64,000 nucleotides of DNA from a virus, in IMG/VR virus record IMGVR_UViG_3300021135_000003; one strand, 5' to 3'. Shown one piece after another: positions 55,172 to 64,000 of the stretch. The stretch's first letter is position 1. Each line of letters opens with the position of its first letter. The position numbers and the translations under genes are program-made. The notes beneath the pieces were generated by a model, which saw only the letters and a list, made by a program, of their open reading frames with translations, had not been told where the DNA came from and did not search any database.

Positions 55172-55597
55172 ATGTGGACATTTAATAATCAAATCATTGA
55201 AGATTTACCAGAAGATTGTGTTGGCTTTGTTTATTTAATTACGAACAAAGCCACAAGTCGCATGTATATCGGTAAGAAGTTAGCGAAGTTTTCTAAGACA
55301 ACCTATAAGATGGTTACTCAGAAAAATGGTATAAAAAAGAAAAAAAAGATTCGTGGCAAGATTGATAGCGACTGGAGAGAATATTATGGTTCTAGTATTG
55401 AACTAAATAAAGATGTTGAGTCTCTCGGTAAAGAAAACTTTATACGTGAGATTTTATTTTTGTGTAAATCTAAAGCAGAATGTTCTTATATAGAAGCAAG
55501 GGAACAGTTCGGGAGGAAAGTATTAGAATCAGACGACTACTATAATGGACAGATATCTGTTCGAGTCCATGGTTCTCATATTAAAAACAAATTATGA
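55172..55597 (+). CDS. GIY-YIG endonuclease (endonuclease II/DenA-like)
   Basis: GFVYLITN…MYIGKK…W..YYGSS…E…YYN. Confidence 0.8.
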   Translation: MWTFNNQIIEDLPEDCVGFVYLITNKATSRMYIGKKLAKFSKTTYKMVTQKNGIKKKKKIRGKIDSDWREYYGSSIELNKDVESLGKENFIREILFLCKSKAECSYIEAREQFGRKVLESDDYYNGQISVRVHGSHIKNKL

Positions 55598-56727
55598 CAT
55601 ATCTACTATTCGGAACAGCATTAGCATTATCTGCTTGCGCTGCTTACTATTCTATTATGGGGTTAGTTGCGATTTTCGCAGCTTCAGCCATACCAATTTT
55701 CATTATGGGTTCGCTACTTGAATCATCAAAATTAGTTGTTGCTTCATGGCTATACCGTAATTGGAAAGAAGTTCCAGTATTATTAAAATATTACTTTACT
55801 GTAGCTTTAGTAATTTTAATGCTACTAACGTCAATGGGTATTTTTGGTTATCTATCAAAAGCCCATTTAGATCAAGCAATACCATCTGGAGATGTGCAAG
55901 CAAAACTTTCATTAATAGATGAAAAAATTAAAACCGAAAAGGAGAATATAAATGCAAGCCGTAAAGAACTTTCTCAACTCGATGCTCAAGTTGATCAAAC
56001 CATCTCAAGAACCACAGAAGCCAGTGGAGCAGAGCGTGCCATTTCCATTAGACGAGGACAGCAAAAAGACCGTAACAGAATCCTCAACGAAATCGGTCAA
56101 GCGCAAACCAAAATCGCCAAATACAACGAAGAGCGTGCGCCAATCGCCAGCGAAGTCCGCAAAGTCGAAGCCGAAGTCGGTCCAATAAAATATATTGCAG
56201 CATTATTATATGGTGATAATCCAGAAAATGATGTATTAGAAAAAGCAGTTCGCTGGGTTATTATAATGATTGTTTCAGTATTTGATCCACTAGCAGTTTT
56301 ATTATTAATTGCTGCTAACTGGCAACAGAAACGTAATAGAGAAGAAGTTGAACCAATTCAACAAGAAGTTTTTATTGATCAGGGCGAACTACCAGATCCT
56401 CCACCAGAATCACCATCAATTGAAGTTACTTTAGAAGATAATTTACATGCTTCTGATAATGCTCAGTTATCAATAAAAGGCGATGAGCATATTGTTGAGA
56501 AAAATATCAGCAATTATGAATCAGCTGAAATAACTGACGAAGAACTTAATATTACAGTTGATGAAAGTAAAGATTGGGAACCTAATCTATACAATCGTCT
56601 TGAAAAACGTGATGATTCACTACCTCAAAAAACCCAATCATTTCTAAATAAAGCCAAAGAAGTTTTCTCAACTATTGGTGTAAAAACCATAGAAAAGGAA
56701 GTAGAAGACTTGCAAAATAAGAAATAG
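55594..56727 (+). CDS. Membrane protein with periplasmic coiled coil and acidic tail
   Basis: Three N-terminal TMs (TSMGIFGYLSKAH), coiled coil, EVGPIKYIA, TM with FDPLAV. Confidence 0.7.
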   Translation: MTYLLFGTALALSACAAYYSIMGLVAIFAASAIPIFIMGSLLESSKLVVASWLYRNWKEVPVLLKYYFTVALVILMLLTSMGIFGYLSKAHLDQAIPSGDVQAKLSLIDEKIKTEKENINASRKELSQLDAQVDQTISRTTEASGAERAISIRRGQQKDRNRILNEIGQAQTKIAKYNEERAPIASEVRKVEAEVGPIKYIAALLYGDNPENDVLEKAVRWVIIMIVSVFDPLAVLLLIAANWQQKRNREEVEPIQQEVFIDQGELPDPPPESPSIEVTLEDNLHASDNAQLSIKGDEHIVEKNISNYESAEITDEELNITVDESKDWEPNLYNRLEKRDDSLPQKTQSFLNKAKEVFSTIGVKTIEKEVEDLQNKK

Positions 56728-56799
56728 CCATTCCTAAATAGTCCTATAATAAGAGGGTAAAAGATTAAACCCCAACCATAATAACTATATGGATAAAGT

Positions 56800-57075
56800 A
56801 TGGATTTATTTAAATTGGTGGCGGAGGTTGGATTTCCCATTGCTGCAGCTGCTGCAGCTGGTTATTTCGTTTTCCTAACCCTTAAATTTATTTTAGCTGG
56901 CGTAACTTCCTCTGTTAAACAGATGGCTGGTATCATCATGGCATTAGATAAACGTGTTTCAGCCATGAACCACGATGTCATTCGAATTGATACTAAAGTA
57001 AGTCATGCACTCCATATTCCACCTGATTTAGATAGAATCGCTAGAGCAGAGCAATCTGATGCGAGGAGAGATTAA
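56800..57075 (+). CDS. Small membrane protein (paralog of 57449)
   Basis: GFPIAAA…TM…LD.R…M..D..R. Confidence 0.65.
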   Translation: MDLFKLVAEVGFPIAAAAAAGYFVFLTLKFILAGVTSSVKQMAGIIMALDKRVSAMNHDVIRIDTKVSHALHIPPDLDRIARAEQSDARRD

Positions 57076-57257
57076 TGACATTTACATTTACAATTACTGC
57101 TATGCAGTTATATACCGTAGGGTTTTTTAGTTTTATTGCTTTTCTCCTTTACCTTTATACTAAAGATAATGGAGATGATCACCTGACTCATATTAGACAT
57201 GATATTGAGATGAAAAAAGAATGGTTTAGAATGCTTGCTGAAAGGAACGCAAAATGA
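57075..57257 (+). CDS. Small membrane protein
   Basis: Single TM; coupled ORF. Confidence 0.5.
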   Translation: MTFTFTITAMQLYTVGFFSFIAFLLYLYTKDNGDDHLTHIRHDIEMKKEWFRMLAERNAK

Positions 57258-57442
57258 TTTACGTAGATTACAATTTTGATTTAAACGATAATGTTATTAT
57301 TTTTGATGCAGATTTAAAACTATCTGGTCAATCAAATGGAAATAAATGGGGCAATCTTCCAGAAGCATGGAAAGAAGGAGATATGTTTAAACTTGTAACT
57401 GGCGCAAATGGCAAAGTTGCTTTGTTAAGAACTAAAGAGTAA
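57254..57442 (+). CDS. Small hypothetical protein
   Basis: Coupled ORF; YVDY.FDL…WKEGD.F. Confidence 0.55.
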   Translation: MIYVDYNFDLNDNVIIFDADLKLSGQSNGNKWGNLPEAWKEGDMFKLVTGANGKVALLRTKE

Positions 57443-57448
57443 TAGAAA

Positions 57449-57730
57449 ATGGATTTAGTCTCATTAATTAATAAGTATGGATTTCCTATTGTTGCCGCAG
57501 GTGGCATGGGTTATTTGGTTTATTATGTTTGGAAATGGGTAACGACTGAGATTAAGCCAGTAACGACTGAAGCAAATAATGTATTGATCGCATTAATCGA
57601 TCGAATTAGAATGTTGGATAATGATCTTATCCGATTAAATCAAAAAGTGAATGTCATCCTTTCGTTGCGTGAACAGGGAAATTTAAAAGATGATTCACAA
57701 AAGAGTACTGTTAATAACACTGATAAGTAA
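57449..57730 (+). CDS. Small membrane protein (paralog of 56800)
   Basis: YGFPIVAA…TM…LIDRIRMLDND.IRL. Confidence 0.65.
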   Translation: MDLVSLINKYGFPIVAAGGMGYLVYYVWKWVTTEIKPVTTEANNVLIALIDRIRMLDNDLIRLNQKVNVILSLREQGNLKDDSQKSTVNNTDK

Positions 57731-58133
57731 TGTCGCAATTGCCACACCATTGCCAGATCAGTCATTTAAATCTCCATCCTTCAATGGCAATGGCTATTCA
57801 TCACACGTTCTTACAATAGAGAACCAAGAGTATACAAGACAACAACAAATAGTTAAAGATGCATTGGCAGCAGCCCAAGCAGCTGCCAATGCTCAACAAA
57901 ATACAAACATTGCTAAATTTTTAAATAATTTAGAATCTCGTATTTACGCTCAAATCTCTCAAAATTTGGCAACCGCAATGTTTGCCAATGGAGGTTCAAA
58001 TAGCGGAACATTAAACTTTGAAGGTAATTTAATTAGTTGGACTAAAGATAGTTCAAATGTATATCTTAGCGTAACAGATACATTAGGTAATGTTACAAAT
58101 GTTACAGTACCACTTGGGCAGTTTACTTTCTAA
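57690..58133 (+). CDS. csgF: Curli assembly protein CsgF-like
   Basis: Signal peptide, then F.SPSF.G.G…L..ENQ; F..NLESRIYAQ.S..L; directly upstream of csgG. Confidence 0.8.
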   Translation: MIHKRVLLITLISNVAIATPLPDQSFKSPSFNGNGYSSHVLTIENQEYTRQQQIVKDALAAAQAAANAQQNTNIAKFLNNLESRIYAQISQNLATAMFANGGSNSGTLNFEGNLISWTKDSSNVYLSVTDTLGNVTNVTVPLGQFTF

Positions 58134-59002
58134 TGAAAAAGTTAATTTTATTATCACTAATATTAATTCTTTCTGGTTGCGCTGTAATACAGAAAGCTGG
58201 CTATGAATATAAGCCAGAAGTAGCACCCAATAAACTTGAGAAAGAATTTGATGCTATTCCTGCGCCTGATGGTAAAAAAGTAACTGTCGCTGTTTATAGT
58301 TTTCAAGATAAAACTGGACAGCGTAAACCTACACCTGGAATTGCTAACTTATCCACTGCTGTGACGCAAGGTGGCGAAGTATTTTTAATTCGTGCTTTAC
58401 AAGATGTAGGTAAAGCGCAATGGTTTGATGTAGTTGAACGTGTTGCTGTAGATAATCTGACAAAGGAAAGAACAATCATTCGTCAGATGCGCGAAGCATA
58501 TGAAGGAAAAGAAGCAAAACCACTAATGCCACTTCAATTTGCTGGTTTAATTATGGAAGGTGGCATTATTGGTTATGATTCTGGTTCTGAATCTGGTGGT
58601 GCTGCTCATAGATTTTTAGGTATTGGTTCTCAAACTCAATACTCTAAAGATACGGTAACAGTATCATTAAGAGCAGTATCTGTAAATACTGGTAAAGTAT
58701 TAGTTGCAGTTACTGTAACTAAAATAGTTTATTCAACAGCAGATTCTGTAGCTGTATTAAAGTTTTTAAATAATGGAACAGAAGCATTTGAAGCTGAGGC
58801 AGGTTTAACAATTAATGAGCCAGGAACATTGGCAATAAAGGCAACGATTGAAGCAGCAGTAGTTGAATTAATTAAAGAAGGCGAACGAAGAGGAGTGTGG
58901 GATTATAAAAAGACCACACTATCGCTTCCAGTTATAATCCCTGATAAAAAATATGAAGGAAACGAAAACCAAAACAAAGAGAACCTAAAGGAGAAGAACT
59001 AA
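58133..59002 (+). CDS. csgG: Curli secretion channel CsgG-like lipoprotein
   Basis: Lipobox LSGC; VAVY.F.DKTGQRK…STAVTQG…WF.VVER…L.KER.IIR; EGGIIGYD; D.VTV.LR.VSV.TG; NEP…IE.AV. Confidence 0.92.
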   Translation: MKKLILLSLILILSGCAVIQKAGYEYKPEVAPNKLEKEFDAIPAPDGKKVTVAVYSFQDKTGQRKPTPGIANLSTAVTQGGEVFLIRALQDVGKAQWFDVVERVAVDNLTKERTIIRQMREAYEGKEAKPLMPLQFAGLIMEGGIIGYDSGSESGGAAHRFLGIGSQTQYSKDTVTVSLRAVSVNTGKVLVAVTVTKIVYSTADSVAVLKFLNNGTEAFEAEAGLTINEPGTLAIKATIEAAVVELIKEGERRGVWDYKKTTLSLPVIIPDKKYEGNENQNKENLKEKN

Positions 59003-59030
59003 GGAACGTAACTTAGTTCTAATAAAAAAG

Positions 59031-59837
59031 ATGGTTAAAAGAATGAAAGGAAACGGCGAATTTCCGAGAAAATTATTCGCAATTCTAGCATTGACTGCAA
59101 TGTCAATGTCGGGTTATGCTGCTGATAATAGCATTTATATTGATCAGTCTGGCGATAATAGTACGATTAATATTACCCAAGATGGTGCTGGTAACACGGT
59201 AAGAGGATTACCTGGAATTGGTACTAGTAGTCAAACTCCTGCAAAAATTTGGGGAGACAATAATACCGTAACTATCGATCAAATTGGTAGTGGCAACATG
59301 TTAAGGTTTGGTATTGATACTACTACAGGTGGAAATGGTACACCTAGCATTCGTTACAGCGTAACAGGTAATAATGCTGACGCAACAATTAAAAGTATGA
59401 ATCCAGGATCAACTAATGATAGTCCTATAATTGATGTTCAACAAGTTGGAAATTTTGCTTTCTTGAATATTAATCAAACAGGTGCTGGTCAAAATAATAG
59501 TATTACTGCATTGCAGAGTGGTGGTAATAATAACAGTTTAACTGTTAATCAAAGCAGTGATACTAATGCTACAGTTTCAGTTAATCAAACTGGTGGCGGT
59601 GGAAATACTACTACAATTAATCAAAGTCAGGGAACTAATTCTATTTCTTTAGTAACAGTTGGTGCATCTAACGCAACTACAATTAATCAAACTGGTGATA
59701 ACCAAGCTAGCATTAATATTACTGGTTCTAGTAATACAACTTCACTAACACAAACTAATGTAAGTGGTGGTAATAATATATTTAATTATACTGGTGTTGG
59801 TTCTGGAAATAGTGTAACAGTTTTACAGAACAAATAA
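59031..59837 (+). CDS. Curlin-repeat (CsgA/CsgB-like) secreted protein
   Basis: Signal peptide; many N-x-x-x-I/V-x-Q-x-G-x-x-N repeats; Asn/Gln/Gly/Thr-rich. Confidence 0.8.
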   Translation: MVKRMKGNGEFPRKLFAILALTAMSMSGYAADNSIYIDQSGDNSTINITQDGAGNTVRGLPGIGTSSQTPAKIWGDNNTVTIDQIGSGNMLRFGIDTTTGGNGTPSIRYSVTGNNADATIKSMNPGSTNDSPIIDVQQVGNFAFLNINQTGAGQNNSITALQSGGNNNSLTVNQSSDTNATVSVNQTGGGGNTTTINQSQGTNSISLVTVGASNATTINQTGDNQASINITGSSNTTSLTQTNVSGGNNIFNYTGVGSGNSVTVLQNK

Positions 59838-59838
59838 T

Positions 59839-60954
59839 ATGAAATATTTTATATTATGTTTATTTGTCGCTGGTCTTTCTAATTGCGGTAAGACGCATGC
59901 TGCTGTCGGAAAGATTACTGAACAAGTAAACTTACCTCCCTCAATCCAGAGAGATAAAGAAACACTCTCTGGTGCGAAAGGAACTGGTGTTGAAATGAAC
60001 GACGCAATTAAAACAACTCGTGGTAAAGTTGGTATCACATTTGCTGATGATACTAAAGTAGAGATAAACGAAAACTCTAGACTGGTCATTGATGACTTTG
60101 TCTACGATCCAAAAGCAAAGAGTGGTAAACTTGCAATGAAAGTTGCGCTGGGTACTGTTCGTTACGCATCTGGGCAAATCGCCCATAATAATAACCAAAA
60201 TGTAAATATCAATACACCAACTGCCACTGTTGCAGTTCGTGGTACAGACTTTACTGCTACAGTAGATGAAATTGGCGCTTCAACTGTTATTCTTCTTCCA
60301 ACATGTCCAGGAAATAGAATTCCTATCGATGTATCAAAAGATTGTTACACTGGAATTATTGATGTTATTACCGATGGCGGTATGGTAACACTCACCAAAC
60401 CATTTGAAGCAACAAAGGTATATGATCGTTCCATCGCTCCAATGAAACCAGTGGTTTTAAATTTATTAAATTTTGACATGTTAAACAATATGCTTATTGT
60501 TTCTCCACCAAAAGAAATTAAAAAACAAGAAGAACAAACAAAAGTTGTTTCAACTGGAGCATTGAGTGTTGACTTTTTAAAAGAAAACTCTCTTGTTAAT
60601 GCATTAGATGCTCAACAGAAAGATGCATTTCAAGATAAACTATCAAGAAATTTACTTGATCAAAACTTTCTCGCCAATGTCTTGGATATTATTAATGCTC
60701 AAATGGCAGCACAGTTAGACTTATTAAACAATAGTAAATCTGGTTTACTCCCAGATTATATCGCAACTAGCGGAGTTGTGGCTGAAGTTGATGATAACAA
60801 TGTAACTCTTTATAGAAATGATGGATCAAATACACAAAGTGTAATGGTTCCAAAAAATCAAAATTCTAAAATAATTCAGCAACAAGGTTCTGTTGAAATT
60901 ATAAACAGAGTCAACAATGGTGGAACAACTATAATTACTTTAAGGCAGAATTAA
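59839..60954 (+). CDS. Exported FecR-domain protein
   Basis: Signal peptide; D.I.T..G.V.I.F.DDT.V.I.ENS.L.ID.F.YDP…G..RY.SG…TPTA..AVRGTDF. Confidence 0.85.
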   Translation: MKYFILCLFVAGLSNCGKTHAAVGKITEQVNLPPSIQRDKETLSGAKGTGVEMNDAIKTTRGKVGITFADDTKVEINENSRLVIDDFVYDPKAKSGKLAMKVALGTVRYASGQIAHNNNQNVNINTPTATVAVRGTDFTATVDEIGASTVILLPTCPGNRIPIDVSKDCYTGIIDVITDGGMVTLTKPFEATKVYDRSIAPMKPVVLNLLNFDMLNNMLIVSPPKEIKKQEEQTKVVSTGALSVDFLKENSLVNALDAQQKDAFQDKLSRNLLDQNFLANVLDIINAQMAAQLDLLNNSKSGLLPDYIATSGVVAEVDDNNVTLYRNDGSNTQSVMVPKNQNSKIIQQQGSVEIINRVNNGGTTIITLRQN

Positions 60955-61541
60955 TGAAATTGTTTGTTTTTGCATTTTTTGTTGCTGTTTTTGGATTTTG
61001 TTCAAAAACAAAAGCAGCAGATGCAACTGTAAATATAAATCAAGTTGGTTCAAATAATGTAATTAATATTGAGCAGTATAATGCTGCCAATAATGCGTCA
61101 ATAAACCTTGGATCAATATCTCCAGTTGATAACACATACATAAATATAACACAAAGAGATTCTGGTGTAAAAACTGCCACTGTTGAAATCCCTTCTGGGA
61201 TAAACAATGGGGTTAGTATTTTACAACAAGGTGCTGGTAACCATACAGCAAATATTCAGAATTTAAATGGTTCTGGAAATAATATAAGTATTGATCAAAA
61301 TGGATCTGGAAATCATGAGTTCAATGTTATTGCTGGAAATGGAACTACAAATAATGGTAATACTATTAATGCAGTTCAGTCTGGTGGTGTTGGTGCAGAT
61401 AAGTGGTTTCAAGTTAATTTAAATGGAACTACTGGAGCAACAGTTAATGTGCAACAAACTAACCCTACTCAAGCACAACAGGGTTCAATGAATATCCAAT
61501 GTTCTACAGGTTGTGGTACTTGGTCATATATTAGAAACTAA
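60954..61541 (+). CDS. Second curlin-repeat secreted protein
   Basis: Signal peptide; INQVGSNN, ILQQGAGNH, IDQNGSGNH, VQSGG repeats; C-terminal CxxxC. Confidence 0.72.
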   Translation: MKLFVFAFFVAVFGFCSKTKAADATVNINQVGSNNVINIEQYNAANNASINLGSISPVDNTYINITQRDSGVKTATVEIPSGINNGVSILQQGAGNHTANIQNLNGSGNNISIDQNGSGNHEFNVIAGNGTTNNGNTINAVQSGGVGADKWFQVNLNGTTGATVNVQQTNPTQAQQGSMNIQCSTGCGTWSYIRN

Positions 61542-61567
61542 ATAGAAAACAACATAAAGGAAATGAA

Positions 61568-62386
61568 ATGAAATATATACTCTCGTTATTCTTAGTAATA
61601 ACATCCCTAACAGCCAACGCATGGACACAAAGACAACCAAACCCTGTTGCAGCATGCCAACCCCATGCGCCATATGGTTTCCCTCAGACAACTGGTGTAA
61701 CACCTATCTGTCGCCAAGCATATTTGGTAGGATATGATGCTGCAGCCAAATTACCAAAGTTTGTAACCTATGAACTTCTTCCTCAAAATGCTCTTGGCTG
61801 CGTTGCTAGGACTAATGCTTTCGCAGCTGATCAGTCTGTTGCTGGTGGCGCTGTACCTGCTGATTACGCAGGGACTGGTTATGATAAGGGTCACATGAGT
61901 CCAGATGGTGACTTATCTTGGGACACTCAAGTAGAGTTTGAATCATTCCTCATGACAAATATGTCTCCACAGGCTGGTTCATTAAATCGTGGAATTTGGA
62001 AATTACTTGAAACTTCAGTTCGTGGTTGGGCAGTTCAACGCAATCAATCATACACAATCTATGTAGGTGGTGTTTATAATCCACAAGACAAAAAAATTGG
62101 TAATGGTGTTATAGTTCCACATGGTTTCTACAAAATTGTTATTAATAATCAAACAGGTGAAGTTGCTGGCTGGGCATTCCCACACGTAGCTCCATATCCT
62201 AATCTTGGAAATGATTTAACTAAATTCCGTTTGCCAATCGCACAGATTGAACAAGCAGGTGGTGTTAAGTTTGCTTTCCCTGCAAACGCTAAAGAACTTG
62301 CTCCTGGAGCAGAATGGCCAGTGGACTTTGGTGCACTCACTAAAGCAAAACGTGCTAAGTGTGGTGCTAATGCTTCTGATGACTAA
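61568..62386 (+). CDS. Secreted DNA/RNA non-specific endonuclease (NucA/Serratia family)
   Basis: Signal peptide; YDKGHMSP (DRGH-type), F.MTNM.PQ…LNRG.W..LE..VR, VP..FYK. Confidence 0.9.
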   Translation: MKYILSLFLVITSLTANAWTQRQPNPVAACQPHAPYGFPQTTGVTPICRQAYLVGYDAAAKLPKFVTYELLPQNALGCVARTNAFAADQSVAGGAVPADYAGTGYDKGHMSPDGDLSWDTQVEFESFLMTNMSPQAGSLNRGIWKLLETSVRGWAVQRNQSYTIYVGGVYNPQDKKIGNGVIVPHGFYKIVINNQTGEVAGWAFPHVAPYPNLGNDLTKFRLPIAQIEQAGGVKFAFPANAKELAPGAEWPVDFGALTKAKRAKCGANASDD

Positions 62387-62418: not shown

Positions 62419-62532
62419 ATGTTAGATACACTACTATGGATAGCAGTTGGTGCTTTTGTTGGTTGGAATTTCCCACAACCTTTTTGGGCTGTGGCAATCC
62501 AAGCAAAAATTAAATCAATGATCGCAAAATAA
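62419..62532 (+). CDS. 37-aa membrane micro-protein (not in ORF track)
   Basis: AAGGAG SD; MLDTLLWIAVGAFVGWNFPQPFWA. Confidence 0.6.
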   Translation: MLDTLLWIAVGAFVGWNFPQPFWAVAIQAKIKSMIAK

Positions 62533-62915
62533 TGGCTTACTCTGATCGAGTTATTGATCACTACGAGAACCCACGTAATGTGGGTTCTCTGGATAAAAAT
62601 GATCCATCAGTTGGTACTGGGATGGTTGGCGCACCAGCGTGCGGTGACGTGATGAAACTTCAAATTAAAGTAGAAGAAGGAATTATCACAGATGCCAAAT
62701 TCAAAACGTATGGTTGTGGCTCGGCTATTGCATCGAGTTCGCTTGTTACTGAATGGGTCAAAGGGAAAACACTTGCCCAAGCAGGACAAATTAAAAATAG
62801 CGAGATTGCTAATGAACTTGCCCTTCCGCCAGTTAAGATTCACTGCTCTATACTTGCGGAAGATGCGATTAAGGCAGCGATACACGACTATCAACTTAAA
62901 TGTGAATGTTCATGA
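62532..62915 (+). CDS. iscU: Fe-S cluster scaffold IscU
   Basis: [42 protein letters not shown]. Confidence 0.97.
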
Positions 62916-63220
62916 TTAATTTAACAGAAACTGCAAAGAATCAAATATCAGAAGTTCTTTCTGATGGTAGTGGTAAATACGTAAGAGCATTTGTTCAAGG
63001 TGGTGGATGTTCTGGTTTTAATTACGGATTTACTATTGAAGAAGATAAAGAAGAAGATGATTTTGTAATTGAACAGCTTATCATCGATTCAATGAGTATG
63101 CAATATTTTGAGAACGCAACGATAGATTATACTAGCGACAAACTAAAAGGTTCACAGTTTGTTATCTCTAACCCTAATGCTAAATCCACTTGTGGATGCG
63201 GGAGTTCGTTCAGCGTATGA
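62912..63220 (+). CDS. iscA: A-type Fe-S carrier (IscA/ErpA)
   Basis: GGGCSGF.Y…[13 protein letters not shown]. Confidence 0.92.
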
Positions 63221-63567
63221 AAAAACTTATAATCATAACAGTATTTTTATTGAATGGTTGTTCGCTCCTATCAGTAATTATGCCTATCGACCATGATCCA
63301 GTTATGTTTAATAACCTTGTTTCTGTTAAGATTGCAGTCGACAAATTAAACTGTGATGATAAAAACTGGAGCGATGCTGAATCAAAGTTACAGCAATTAA
63401 AATTGTATAGCGATTATCGTGGTGATCCTCAAGCAAAATCAATTGCTCAGTTAGATGAAGCAATCGGCAAAGCAAAGAAATCTGATAATAAACTATTTTG
63501 TGAAAGTATCCTTAAAATTAACAAAACTAGAATTGACGTCATTGCTGACGCATGGAAAGGAAGATAA
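63217..63567 (+). CDS. Lipoprotein
   Basis: Lipobox LNGC after a hydrophobic signal. Confidence 0.65.
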
Positions 63568-63797
63568 TGATAGAAGAACTTAGAGAAGTTGCAGGTATGG
63601 GTGGTCCAGCTGCTGGTTTAGCAAATGAACTTTTAGTTTTACGTGAACAATATGAATCCGAACAATTGAGTAAAGATGAATATCAATTCCTCGTGCAACA
63701 AGTTTGGGAAGTAAAAGCTGCGCAAGAATTATCCTCTGACGAACAAGCATTCCGCTATATCGTTACTGCAGCGCAGGCAATGTATATGTTTGTGTAA
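63567..63797 (+). CDS. Hypothetical protein
   Basis: TAATG coupled on both sides. Confidence 0.55.
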   Translation: MIEELREVAGMGGPAAGLANELLVLREQYESEQLSKDEYQFLVQQVWEVKAAQELSSDEQAFRYIVTAAQAMYMFV

Positions 63798-64000
63798 TGA
63801 AAAAATTATTATCACCATGGATGGCACTAGTAACCCTAGTGCTCATGGTTTGTATTCGTTTAGCTGACCCATCTTTTGTAGAGTCAGTGCGACTTCGTTA
63901 CTTCGATCAATTAATAACATCAAAGGAGTCCACTGTATCAGAACAGGTGCATGTGGTAAATATAGACGATGAGTTTATTAAGCAAAAAGGACAGTTCCCG
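63797..64000 (+). CDS. CHASE2-domain membrane sensor, 5' part only (often an adenylate/guanylate cyclase)
   Basis: MKKLLSPWMALVTL…TM…DP.FVES.RLRYFD…V.VVNIDD..I…GQFP, a CHASE2 N-terminus; runs off the window. Confidence 0.75.
   Translation, partial: MKKLLSPWMALVTLVLMVCIRLADPSFVESVRLRYFDQLITSKESTVSEQVHVVNIDDEFIKQKGQFP

What the first reader, a model, noticed from the sequence alone, without database searches (positions are those of the whole stretch)
57690..61541. Phage-encoded curli-like (type VIII) secretion module with its own amyloid-type subunits
Seen: csgF, csgG (lipobox, conserved core) and two signal-peptide proteins built from curlin-type N-x3-I-x-Q-x-G-x2-N repeats, flanking a FecR-domain gene. 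No csgE, csgC or csgD is visible. Established: CsgG/CsgF export and anchor curli amyloid in bacteria, and csgF/csgG have been noted in some marine T4-like phages with unknown function. Inference: during infection the phage builds an outer-membrane pore plus surface beta-solenoid/amyloid fibres. Possible roles are receptor masking (superinfection exclusion), aggregating infected cells with fresh hosts, grazing protection or solute uptake.
Basis: partly seen in the sequence, partly recalled or inferred. Interest (0 to 1): 0.8.

Follow-up and report, generated by a model that had tools for sequence, protein, structure and literature searches.

The report
Freshwater phage copy of viral curli module
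A freshwater T4-like phage carries an intact copy of the already published "viral curli" gene block (outer-membrane pore, pore cap, two fibre-type subunits and an exported FecR-type protein), so the genes are real, but the block is a new member of a known kind whose function nobody has tested.

Summary
Observation confirmed. Window 57690-61541 encodes CsgF, a CsgG lipoprotein, a 268-aa curlin-repeat protein (Cur1), an exported FecR-domain protein and a second, 195-aa curlin-repeat protein (Cur2). All have N-terminal hydrophobic, signal-peptide-like leaders and all are under purifying selection.

The block and its proposed roles (superinfection defence, "sibling capture", import) are already published for marine pelagiphages: Zaragoza-Solas 2020, Buchholz 2022 and, with curlins, FecR and cyclase, Wittmers 2022. 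This scan had also noted the module before on other DNA (438 notes, at least 259 genomes).

- a pair of small membrane proteins upstream;
- a late-promoter-like motif;
- a CHASE2 (cyclase) gene starting at 63797.

What is new here is modest:
- The phage comes from freshwater and sits in a CsgG clade separate from HTVC008M and Melnitz.
- A 2.2-kb insert (secreted nuclease, IscU, IscA, lipoprotein) separates Cur2 from the cyclase.
- The published "histidine kinases" are, if they are these genes, about 92-aa membrane proteins with no kinase domain.
- The two curlins are distinct classes. Every post-FecR curlin ends in a Cys-x(2-6)-Cys cap (63/63), against 0/76 pre-FecR and 1/104 bacterial curlins.

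Fibre formation remains an inference.

The parts
56734..56740 (+). Late-promoter-like motif CTAAATA, 60 nt upstream of the first gene of the block
   Evidence: Sequence read. All 10 CTAAATA in the window lie on the coding strand. [ACT]TAAATA lies within 100 nt upstream of the first small-membrane gene in 23 of 25 related loci, against 6.4% of random windows. Promoter function is inferred.
56800..57075 (+). TMa: 91-aa protein with one hydrophobic stretch near the N-terminus (phrog_18771), paralogue of TMb
   Evidence: PHROG E 5.7e-35. No Pfam or NCBIfam family, and no HisKA/HATPase match. Nearest named ESM Atlas cluster is YvrJ, score 0.89, a lead only. dN/dS 0.06-0.09. A TMa/TMb pair occurs in 29 of the 89 loci fetched by then; two more loci show a single copy.
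57075..57442 (+). Two small ORFs (60 and 62 aa) inserted between TMa and TMb in this sub-clade
   Evidence: ORFs. Relatives occur only in the closest loci. No Pfam hit.
57449..57730 (+). TMb: 93-aa small membrane protein, paralogue of TMa; overlaps csgF by 41 nt
   Evidence: phrog_18771 E 5e-35, plus a weak holin PHROG hit at 6.8e-4. dN/dS 0.08-0.11.
57690..58133 (+). CsgF homologue with signal peptide; N-terminal FKSPSFNGxGYSSHVL block is conserved in every aligned relative
   Evidence: Pfam PF10614 1.1e-13. phrog_35372 1.8e-62. 28-sequence alignment A3. dN/dS about 0.18.
58133..59002 (+). CsgG outer-membrane lipoprotein (lipobox LSGC)
   Evidence: Pfam 5e-47. PDB E. coli CsgG 3e-48 over residues 1-260. 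NCBIfam CsgG model 177 bits, below its cut-off of 505. Constriction loop KPTPGIANLSTAV against E. coli KPYPASNFSTAV. dN/dS 0.10.
59031..59837 (+). Cur1: pre-FecR curlin-repeat protein, 268 aa, signal peptide, no C-terminal cysteines
   Evidence: Pfam Curlin_rpt 1.3e-7. PDB 8c50 7e-5 and 8enq 4e-4. NCBIfam CsgA 5e-8 and CsgB 4e-5, both far below cut-off. 9 curlin kernels. N-terminal ADNSIYIDQ.G conserved almost without change in 25 orthologues.
59839..60954 (+). Exported FecR-domain protein, 371 aa: signal peptide, FecR-fold N-terminal half, poorly modelled helical middle, small beta C-terminal domain
   Evidence: Pfam PF04773 4.7e-10. AlphaFold2 pLDDT about 80 for residues 20-210. Foldseek to PupR periplasmic domain 6ovk 2.9e-4 and BDI_1681 4m0n 8e-4. 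At least 7,894 relatives in metagenome proteins. dN/dS 0.10-0.22.
60954..61541 (+). Cur2: post-FecR curlin-repeat protein, 195 aa, signal peptide, C-terminal Cys-x3-Cys cap followed by WSYIRN
   Evidence: Profile A1 to 8c50 5e-18. 19 of 20 orthologues match Curlin_rpt. AF2 pLDDT 82. VIA-align Z 14.3 to P. korlensis CsgA and 9.2 to the E. coli CsgA fibril. The C-terminal Cys pair occurs in 63/63 post-FecR curlins.
63797..64000 (+). N-terminus of a CHASE2-domain membrane protein, cut by the window end; the partner adenylate cyclase in related phages
   Evidence: Pfam CHASE2 E 5.5e-4, 20 bits, below the 26.3 cut-off on a 68-aa fragment. 62-65% identical to the first 33-67 residues of a frame at the same downstream position in three related loci, which overlaps the frame that matches the HTVC008M cyclase in loci nearly identical to one of them (L070). 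CHASE2 cyclases follow the module in 37 of the 89 loci fetched by then.

Best explanation
This is a virus-specific derivative of the curli (type VIII) secretion system, probably transcribed late in infection.

Shown:
- The phage encodes a full-length CsgG lipoprotein and a CsgF with a conserved N-terminal block.
- It encodes two different curlin-repeat proteins and an exported FecR-fold protein.
- All have hydrophobic N-terminal leaders typical of Sec export and all are under purifying selection.
- They sit in a fixed order that recurs in viral contigs from many metagenomes.

Inferred:
- After Sec export, CsgG is lipidated and forms the outer-membrane channel, and CsgF caps it.
- The curlins are threaded out unfolded and fold into beta-solenoids on the cell surface.
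- Cur1 has two open, stackable ends and is the unit that can polymerise.
- Cur2 carries a Cys-stapled, non-curlin C-terminal end, so it can stack at one end only. It therefore acts as the base (CsgB-like anchor) or as the cap of the assembly.
- The FecR-fold protein stays in the periplasm and works with the downstream CHASE2 cyclase as a sensor pair. That pair would couple the state of this surface structure, or an outside signal, to cAMP in the infected cell.

The benefit to the phage (aggregation or host capture, defence against other phages, lysis timing) is unknown.
For: - Family matches for all parts.
- Hydrophobic N-terminal leaders on all exported parts and a lipobox on CsgG.
- Curlin kernels far above shuffled controls.
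- A confident beta-solenoid model of Cur2 whose best match is a solved CsgA.
- dN/dS of 0.06-0.3 for all seven genes wherever dS is unsaturated, except the most divergent Cur1 pair at 0.45.
- Strict gene order csgF-csgG-Cur1-FecR-Cur2 in 80 IMG/VR loci, HTVC008M and Melnitz.
- Viral CsgGs form one clade, SH-aLRT 95.
- The Cys cap is present in 63/63 post-FecR curlins, 0/76 pre-FecR curlins and 1/104 bacterial curlins.
- The FecR N-terminal half matches the PupR periplasmic signalling domain.
- CHASE2 cyclases lie downstream in 37 loci and at 63797 here.
- Exported FecR proteins paired with CHASE2 sensors are known in bacteria: the Burkholderia biofilm operon (PMC5192318) and S. meliloti CyaD1 with SMc02177 (PMC5498481).
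- A late-type motif lies upstream in 23 of 25 loci.
- Wittmers et al. report transcripts of these genes in ocean metatranscriptomes (PMC9599517).
Against: - No experiment shows export, fibres or cAMP for any phage copy. I found none in the paper library.
- Buchholz et al. saw no clumping of Melnitz-infected cells (PMC9004378).
- There is no CsgE or CsgC.
- The E. coli constriction residues Tyr51 and Phe56 are replaced by Thr and Leu.
- A disulfide-forming Cys pair fits poorly with passage through a narrow pore, so Cur2 might stay in the periplasm.
- The beta-solenoid match of Cur2 is only slightly above unrelated beta-helices (Z 14.3 against 12-13, and with rmsd 8.8 against 2.9 A).
- The cyclase is cut by the window end, and here five unrelated genes separate it from the module.
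- The host is unknown.
Confidence: 0.55

Rival explanations
1. The block is mainly a trans-envelope sensor. CsgG/CsgF and the curlins form a fixed surface or periplasm-spanning antenna rather than a polymerising fibre. The FecR-fold protein relays its state to the CHASE2 cyclase, and cAMP tunes late infection.
For: - FecR is interleaved between the two curlin genes in every complete locus.
- CHASE2 cyclases travel with the block.
- The FecR half has the fold of a cell-surface-signalling domain.
- FecR with CHASE2 sensor pairs exist in bacteria (PMC5192318, PMC5498481).
- FecR, the TM pair and the cyclase were absent from about 70 genuine bacterial curli loci, so they are a viral addition.
- The Cys-capped Cur2 varies from 146 to 852 aa, like a rod of set length.
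Against: - Cur1 keeps the canonical polymerising kernel and two open ends.
- Here the cyclase is detached from the block by 2.2 kb of unrelated genes.
- Earlier notes of this scan report no recognisable cAMP receptor in such phages; I did not check this.
- No interaction has been measured.
Confidence: 0.2
2. The block is a lysis-timing or outer-membrane-permeabilising device. The CsgG (with or without CsgF) pore, together with the two holin-like small membrane proteins, controls when the envelope fails (Buchholz et al. 2022); the curlins are accessory.
For: - The TMa/TMb pair lies directly upstream, with a weak holin PHROG hit and a YvrJ-like lead.
- There is a late-type promoter motif.
- The pinholin/secretin proposal is published (PMC9004378).
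Against: - CsgG sits in the outer membrane, whereas holins act on the inner membrane (established knowledge).
- The proposal was made on the premise that csgA and csgB are missing, which is wrong: two curlins are present and under purifying selection.
- The TM pair was not found within the fetched DNA of most loci (absent from 58 of 89).
- FecR and the cyclase are left unexplained.
Confidence: 0.1
3. The block is an uptake channel. An ungated CsgG pore (no CsgE) lets nutrients or cofactors into the periplasm of the infected cell.
For: - No CsgE gate was found.
- The idea is in the literature (PMC7029224, PMC9599517).
- The constriction is less aromatic than in E. coli.
Against: It does not explain CsgF, the two curlins under purifying selection, or FecR. 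Late expression leaves little time for the phage to benefit.
Confidence: 0.05
4. The block is not a working phage module: either bacterial DNA joined by mis-assembly or a decaying relic, or the repeat proteins are virion parts.
For: None found. Some related contigs sit in bacterial MAG bins.
Against: - G+C is uniform at 0.34-0.38 and all genes are on one strand, between T4-type core genes.
- The synteny nrdB-segE-membrane protein-TM pair-csgF recurs in several viral contigs.
- The MAG contigs are low-GC and carry the full viral block.
- Reading frames are intact with low dN/dS.
- The signal-peptide-like leaders imply export, whereas T4-type virions assemble in the cytoplasm (established knowledge).
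Confidence: 0.02

Closest known systems
Pelagiphage viral T8SS (curli) region: HTVC008M, Melnitz, pelagimyophage MAGs and HTVC023P-type podophages (Zaragoza-Solas 2020 PMC7029224; Buchholz 2022 PMC9004378; Wittmers 2022 PMC9599517)
   Same: - Same genes in the same order: small membrane pair, csgF, csgG, curlin, FecR, second curlin, then a CHASE2 adenylate cyclase.
- The CsgGs belong to one viral clade.
- The same functional hypotheses apply.
   Different: - The DNA is found in freshwater metagenomes (20 runs, 17 studies), whereas the papers describe marine phages and report that freshwater SAR11 myophages lack the operon.
- CsgG is only 45-47% identical to HTVC008M and Melnitz and lies in a separate 58-row clade.
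- DNA polymerase is at most 56% identical to any phage record.
- Cur2 is short (195 aa against 341-441).
- A secreted nuclease, IscU, IscA, a lipoprotein and an 81-aa ORF are inserted between Cur2 and the cyclase.
E. coli / Salmonella curli system (csgBAC, csgDEFG)
   Same: CsgG lipoprotein (E 3e-48 to PDB CsgG), CsgF, and Sec-exported curlin-repeat subunits with the N-x-psi-x-psi-x-Q kernel and a beta-solenoid fold.
   Different: - No CsgE, CsgC or CsgD.
- Constriction residue Tyr51 is replaced by Thr and Phe56 by Leu.
- The mature curlins start directly with a repeat, with no N22-like leader.
- One curlin has a C-terminal Cys pair.
- An exported FecR protein, a small membrane pair and a cyclase are added.
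- The system is encoded by a lytic phage.
Alphaproteobacterial curli loci (e.g. Litorimonas haliclonae and a Caulobacterales MAG), the nearest bacterial CsgGs found here
   Same: The order csgF-csgG followed by two or three curlin genes, with no csgE/C/D. CsgG is 44-45% identical, the best true bacterial hits. This agrees with the alphaproteobacterial origin proposed by Wittmers et al.
   Different: No FecR-type gene, TM pair or cyclase within 8 kb. Only 1 of the 104 curlins next to all bacterial CsgGs sampled ends in a C-terminal Cys pair.
Exported FecR-domain protein plus CHASE2 sensor pairs: Burkholderia biofilm-regulating operon (PMC5192318) and S. meliloti CyaD1 with SMc02177 (PMC5498481)
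   Same: A signal-peptide FecR-domain protein with no anti-sigma domain is encoded near a CHASE2 membrane sensor (a cyclase in S. meliloti and here).
   Different: In bacteria the pair is not tied to CsgG, CsgF or curlins. The Burkholderia sensor is a histidine kinase and its FecR protein carries LysM.
Caulobacter holdfast anchor HfaA/HfaB/HfaD (PMC6707917)
   Same: From my own knowledge of this system, not read here: a CsgG-like outer-membrane protein exports amyloid-like proteins that stay on the surface as an anchor.
   Different: The HfaB model matches only weakly (5e-6 against 4.5e-52 for CsgG). As I recall, the Hfa system has no CsgF, and a CsgF is present here.

Membership tests
Curli / type VIII secretion system | CsgG: outer-membrane lipoprotein with lipobox and the CsgG fold | tested here: met
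   Pfam PF03783 5e-47. Full-length alignment to E. coli CsgG at 3e-48 with the LSGC lipobox aligned. The NCBIfam equivalog cut-off was not reached (177 of 505 bits), so this is a homologue, not an equivalog.
Curli / type VIII secretion system | CsgG constriction residues (E. coli Tyr51, Asn55, Phe56; numbering from my own knowledge) | tested here: not met
   The aligned loop reads T, N, L here. Across viral copies Tyr51 is never aromatic, Asn55 is mostly Ser, and Phe56 is Leu or Phe. The pore is kept but its lining differs.
Curli / type VIII secretion system | CsgF with signal peptide and the N-terminal segment that binds the CsgG barrel | tested here: met
   Pfam PF10614 1.1e-13 over model positions 23-132 of 132. 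The N-terminal block is the most conserved part of 28 orthologues. Direct alignment to solved CsgF failed, and binding was not tested.
Curli / type VIII secretion system | Sec-exported subunits built of curlin repeats (kernel N-x-psi-x-psi-x-Q, about 23 aa, beta-solenoid; Sleutel 2023, PMC10192328) | tested here: met
   Cur1: Pfam 1.3e-7, PDB CsgA hits, 9 kernels. Cur2: profile 5e-18 to 8c50, 5 kernels, AF2 solenoid with Z 14.3 to CsgA. Both have signal-peptide-like leaders.
Curli / type VIII secretion system | Separate nucleator (CsgB) and major subunit (CsgA) | tested here: inconclusive
   There are two clearly different classes, with and without the Cys cap, but neither maps onto CsgA or CsgB. 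Cur1 scores 5e-8 to CsgA and 4e-5 to CsgB, both far below cut-off, and Cur2 scores to neither.
Curli / type VIII secretion system | CsgE periplasmic adaptor, CsgC chaperone, CsgD regulator | tested here: not met
   No such match was found in Pfam or NCBIfam scans of the ORFs scanned between 53544 and 64000. The rest of the genome was not searched. These genes are also absent from alphaproteobacterial systems, according to Wittmers et al. (PMC9599517, citing Dueholm 2012).
Curli / type VIII secretion system | Subunits form extracellular amyloid fibres (Congo red or ThT binding, SDS-resistant, visible by EM) | not testable with these tools
   No experiment on any phage copy was found in the library.
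FecR-type anti-sigma regulators (FecR, PupR) | Cytoplasmic anti-sigma domain plus transmembrane helix, ahead of the periplasmic FecR domain, with a partner ECF sigma factor and TonB-dependent transducer | tested here: not met
   The protein starts with a signal peptide followed at once by the FecR domain. Only the periplasmic domain matches PupR. No sigma factor or transducer was found among the scanned neighbours. It shares the fold, not the family role.
Histidine kinase (label given to the genes ahead of csgF in PMC9599517) | HisKA dimerisation domain and HATPase_c catalytic domain | tested here: not met
   TMa and TMb are 91 and 93 aa and show no Pfam or NCBIfam kinase match even at E up to 1. 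The nearest named cluster is YvrJ (0.89, a lead only). That these are the genes the paper calls HK is my inference from their position.
Viral T8SS region of pelagiphages (Wittmers 2022) | Phage-borne csgF-csgG-curlin-FecR-(curlin)-(adenylate cyclase) in that order, with CsgG in the viral clade | tested here: met
   Gene order. CsgG lies inside the 70-row viral clade, SH-aLRT 95. A CHASE2 start lies at 63797.

The most novel reading that the evidence does not exclude
The block is not a biofilm-type fibre machine. It is a late-infection envelope sensor that sets the time of lysis, comparable in purpose to T4 lysis inhibition. Cur1 and the Cys-capped Cur2 would build a rod of set length on or through the CsgG/CsgF pore. 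The FecR-fold protein would read the rod's state, for example contact with other cells or phages. The CHASE2 cyclase and the two holin-like membrane proteins would turn that signal into a decision to lyse or wait.
Probability: 0.1. Interest if true: 0.75.

Novelty: new member of a known kind. Interest (0 to 1): 0.3.

Why it matters
The viral curli block is abundant: Wittmers et al. put it at about 0.1% of assembled viral proteins in the ocean, and here the FecR protein has at least 7,894 relatives in metagenomes. It gives infected cells an envelope structure that the known hosts (SAR11, OM43) lack, yet its function is unknown.

This copy shows that the block is not confined to marine pelagiphages. 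It also sits in a distinct, large clade of T4-like phages found in lakes.

Three points sharpen future tests:
- The two curlins are different, non-interchangeable classes, one of them with a Cys cap.
- The published "kinase" genes, as identified here by their position ahead of csgF, are small membrane proteins without a kinase domain.
- The block lies behind a late-type promoter motif.

None of this changes the overall picture, which is already published.

Tried and rejected
- No whole genome is held for the window, and there are no tRNAs in the window, so I made no host call.
- Sequencing runs: no RNA holder is listed, so nothing can be said about expression from reads.
- Foldseek with the Cur2 model gave no significant match. 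Only the wide VIA-align search ranked CsgA first.
- CsgF found no solved CsgF, either alone or as a profile.
- The FecR protein found no solved relative by sequence, alone or as a profile. The ESM Atlas gave nothing for its C-terminal half.
- The idea from another first-stage note that the FecR protein ends in curlin-like strands is not supported by kernel counts: 1 strict kernel against 0.42 expected.
- TATAAATA and sigma-70-type scans were not enriched.
- The genome-contig scan with FecR returned only phage-type contigs sitting in MAG bins, not bacterial loci.
- I looked for FecR, the TM pair and the cyclase next to about 70 genuine bacterial CsgG genes and found none. The profiles were built from viral sequences, so very divergent bacterial FecR genes could have been missed.
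- The literature search for an experimental test of phage curli found none.

Full report
**What is there.** All the ORFs of the finding exist on the + strand, abutting or overlapping.
- 57690-58133 is a CsgF homologue: Pfam PF10614, E 1.1e-13, covering almost the whole model; phrog_35372, 1.8e-62.
- 58133-59002 is CsgG: Pfam 5e-47. It aligns from residue 1 to 260 with E. coli CsgG of PDB 3x2r/6l7a at E 3e-48, and the lipobox (LSGC) lies at the same position.
- 59031-59837 (Cur1, 268 aa) matches Pfam Curlin_rpt (1.3e-7) and the solved curli subunits 8c50 (7e-5) and 8enq (4e-4).
- 59839-60954 has a FecR domain, 4.7e-10.
- 60954-61541 (Cur2, 195 aa) has no hit on its own. A profile of 20 orthologues hits the P. 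korlensis curli subunit 8c50 at 5e-18, and 19 of the 20 orthologues match Curlin_rpt.

**Curlin repeats.** I used the curlin kernel defined by Sleutel et al. (N-x-psi-x-psi-x-Q; PMC10192328). Cur1 has 9 kernels, against 0.70 in composition-matched shuffles (0 of 2000 shuffles reach 9). Cur2 has 5, against 0.58 (1 of 2000). CsgF and the FecR protein have none beyond chance. The AlphaFold2 model of Cur2 is confident (pLDDT 82, pTM 0.80) and consists of 14 short strands spaced 10-16 residues apart (typically 11-13), which gives about seven two-strand coils. Foldseek found nothing significant. A wide VIA-align search ranked P. korlensis CsgA first (Z 14.3, but with rmsd 8.8 A against about 2.9 A for the next rows) and the E. 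coli CsgA fibril at Z 9.2, with unrelated beta-helices at Z 12-13. The fold supports the sequence evidence but would not carry the claim alone.

**Export and constraint.** CsgF, CsgG, Cur1, the FecR protein and Cur2 all begin with a hydrophobic leader. All seven genes from TMa to Cur2 have dN/dS of 0.06-0.3 against close relatives wherever dS is not saturated, except the most divergent Cur1 pair, which gives 0.45.

**Is it phage DNA?** The window is one-stranded and has uniform G+C of 0.34-0.38. It carries T4-type replication genes (DNA polymerase, helicase, ligase, NrdA/B). Its DNA polymerase is at most 56% identical to any phage record. The stretch occurs in 20 public runs of 17 studies; 19 are labelled freshwater or freshwater sediment and one is labelled only "metagenome". 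No RNA run is listed. Earlier notes of this scan on the same genome also call it a freshwater T4-like phage.

**It is already known.** The same order csgF-csgG-curlin-FecR-curlin, followed by an adenylate cyclase, is annotated in Pelagibacter phage HTVC008M and in Methylophilales phage Melnitz.
- Zaragoza-Solas et al. 2020 first reported CsgF and CsgG in pelagimyophages and proposed uptake or "sibling capture".
- Buchholz et al. 2022 held that csgA and csgB are missing and proposed a lysis-timing pore.
- Wittmers et al. 2022 identified the curlins, FecR and the cyclase in podo- and myo-pelagiphages. They showed the genes are widespread and transcribed in the ocean, and they discussed superinfection defence, aggregation and import.

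I found no experimental test of it. This scan has also noted the module many times on other DNA.

**Extent of the module.** In IMG/VR, 212 stretches encode relatives of this CsgG. Among the 80 loci fetched plus the two isolates, the order csgF-csgG-Cur1-FecR-Cur2 is conserved wherever the contig reaches far enough.

*Upstream pair.* Upstream lie two paralogous small membrane proteins, TMa at 56800-57075 and TMb at 57449-57730 (phrog_18771). The family occurs in 31 of the 89 loci fetched by then, as a pair in 29, including both isolates. From their position they are probably the "histidine kinases" of Wittmers et al. However, they are about 92 aa long and have no kinase-domain match. Their nearest named cluster is YvrJ, with a weak holin PHROG hit.

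*Promoter motif.* Sixty nt upstream of TMa lies CTAAATA. All ten copies of this motif in the window are on the coding strand. [ACT]TAAATA lies within 100 nt upstream of the first TM gene in 23 of 25 related loci with otherwise diverged spacers, against 6.4% of random windows. This resembles the T4-type late promoter core; that comparison is from my own knowledge, and function is inferred.

*Downstream cyclase.* The ORF that starts at 63797 and runs off the window matches CHASE2 (E 5.5e-4 on 68 residues). It is 62-65% identical to the first 33-67 residues of a frame at the same downstream position in three related loci. That frame overlaps the one matching the HTVC008M cyclase in loci nearly identical to one of them. 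CHASE2 cyclases follow the module in 37 of the 89 loci fetched by then.

*Insert.* Here a secreted Endonuclease_NS (2.8e-40), IscU, IscA, a lipoprotein and an 81-aa ORF are inserted between Cur2 and the cyclase. Locus L016 shows a similar arrangement: Cur2, nuclease, lipoprotein, then the cyclase, but without IscU and IscA.

**Comparison with bacteria.** A scan of one genome per species returned about 70 genuine bacterial CsgG loci. None has the viral-type FecR gene, TM pair or cyclase within 8 kb. The few "genome" loci that do are low-GC contigs in MAG bins that carry the whole viral block, and they are most likely phage contigs. In a CsgG tree the 70 viral-type sequences form one side of a branch (SH-aLRT 95). 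The window sits in a 58-row clade apart from the HTVC008M/Melnitz clade. The nearest true bacterial sequences are alphaproteobacterial (Litorimonas and a Caulobacterales MAG, 44-45% identity). This agrees with the single, alphaproteobacterial origin proposed by Wittmers et al.

**Details that differ from E. coli curli.**
- The constriction loop KPYPASNF of E. coli reads KPTPGIANL here: Tyr51 becomes Thr, Asn55 is kept, and Phe56 becomes Leu. The residue numbering is from my own knowledge; the alignment is. Across viral copies the Tyr is never aromatic.
- The mature curlins begin directly with a repeat (ADNSIYIDQ in Cur1, ADATVNINQ in Cur2, ADNTI-type in most Cur2 orthologues), with no N22-like leader. 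This fits the absence of CsgE.

**Two curlin classes.** In the papers I searched for it I found no mention of the following. "Cysteine" does not occur in Wittmers et al., and the other two papers state that the curlin genes are missing. I found that every post-FecR curlin ends in Cys-x(2-6)-Cys plus one short strand, whatever its length (146-852 aa) or clade. This holds for 63 of 63 post-FecR curlins, 0 of 76 pre-FecR curlins and 1 of 104 curlins next to bacterial CsgG (the counts include near-duplicate loci). The two curlins are therefore distinct classes. One has two stackable ends and the other has one modified end.

**The FecR protein.** Its model is confident only for residues 20-210. That part matches the periplasmic signalling domain of PupR (6ovk, 2.9e-4) and BDI_1681. 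It has no anti-sigma domain and no membrane helix, so it is not a FecR-type anti-sigma factor. NCBIfam relates it weakly to the Leptospira FecR-domain proteins Lsa33 (named a surface adhesin) and LipL45 (a lipoprotein). Exported FecR proteins encoded beside CHASE2 sensors are known in Burkholderia (a biofilm-regulating operon) and in S. meliloti (CyaD1 with SMc02177).

**Most likely mechanism.** I put this reading at about 0.55.
1. The products are Sec-exported.
2. CsgG and CsgF form an outer-membrane channel.
3. Cur1, and perhaps Cur2, are threaded out and fold into beta-solenoids. Cur1 polymerises; Cur2 forms the base or the cap.
4. FecR plus the CHASE2 cyclase act as an attached sensor.

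The parts, their leaders, the selection on them and their linkage are shown. Export, polymerisation and signalling are inferred. The rivals are a pure sensor (0.2), a lysis-timing pore (0.1), an uptake pore (0.05) and an artefact or virion part (0.02).

**Verdict.** The finding is real, intact and conserved, but it is a new member of a published kind. Interest is low to moderate.

Noticed in passing
window 61568-62386 (motif at 61538-61544): A DNA/RNA non-specific endonuclease (Pfam Endonuclease_NS, 2.8e-40) with a signal-peptide-like leader sits right after Cur2, behind its own CTAAATA motif. It recurs at this place in L007 and L014, with a weaker 35%-identical match in L016. A secreted nuclease next to a curli-type block is unexplained.
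   Followed up: partly
window 62532-63220: Phage-borne Fe-S cluster assembly genes IscU (NifU_N, 4e-53) and IscA (3e-14) are inserted between the curli block and the CHASE2 gene. In L023 the same pair lies upstream of the block, so it moves around.
   Followed up: partly
window 63190-63567: A 125-aa predicted lipoprotein (lipobox LLNGC) with no family match is conserved near the block in L003, L007, L014 and L016. It is followed by an 81-aa ORF with no family.
   Followed up: no
window 55594-56727: A 377-aa membrane and coiled-coil protein (weak DUF4407 match) is the usual upstream neighbour of the block. In loci where no TM pair was found (e.g. L011, L015, L018) it is the nearest recognised gene upstream of csgF. 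It may belong to the module.
   Followed up: no
window 55172-55597: A SegE-type GIY-YIG homing endonuclease (8e-33) lies between nrdB and the block. It is conserved at this position in several relatives.
   Followed up: no
L026-L030, L035, L077-L079 and others (CsgG ORFs of 390-444 aa): Many viral CsgG genes carry a C-terminal extension of 100-170 residues that the window's 289-aa CsgG and E. coli CsgG lack.
   Followed up: no
L084-L091, L095, L106, L140, L141: Contigs filed in bacterial MAGs (labelled Polynucleobacter, Rhodobacteraceae, Legionellales, Pirellulales, Luteolibacter, Sphingobacteriales and others) carry all or part of the viral curli block (the longer ones the whole of it) at low G+C. 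They are most likely phage contigs binned by mistake.
   Followed up: partly
L020, L059, L036 (post-FecR curlins of 852, 625 and 493 aa): The Cys-capped curlin class varies almost six-fold in length between phages, while the pre-FecR class stays within about a 1.5-fold range (228-329 aa, mostly 255-330).
   Followed up: partly
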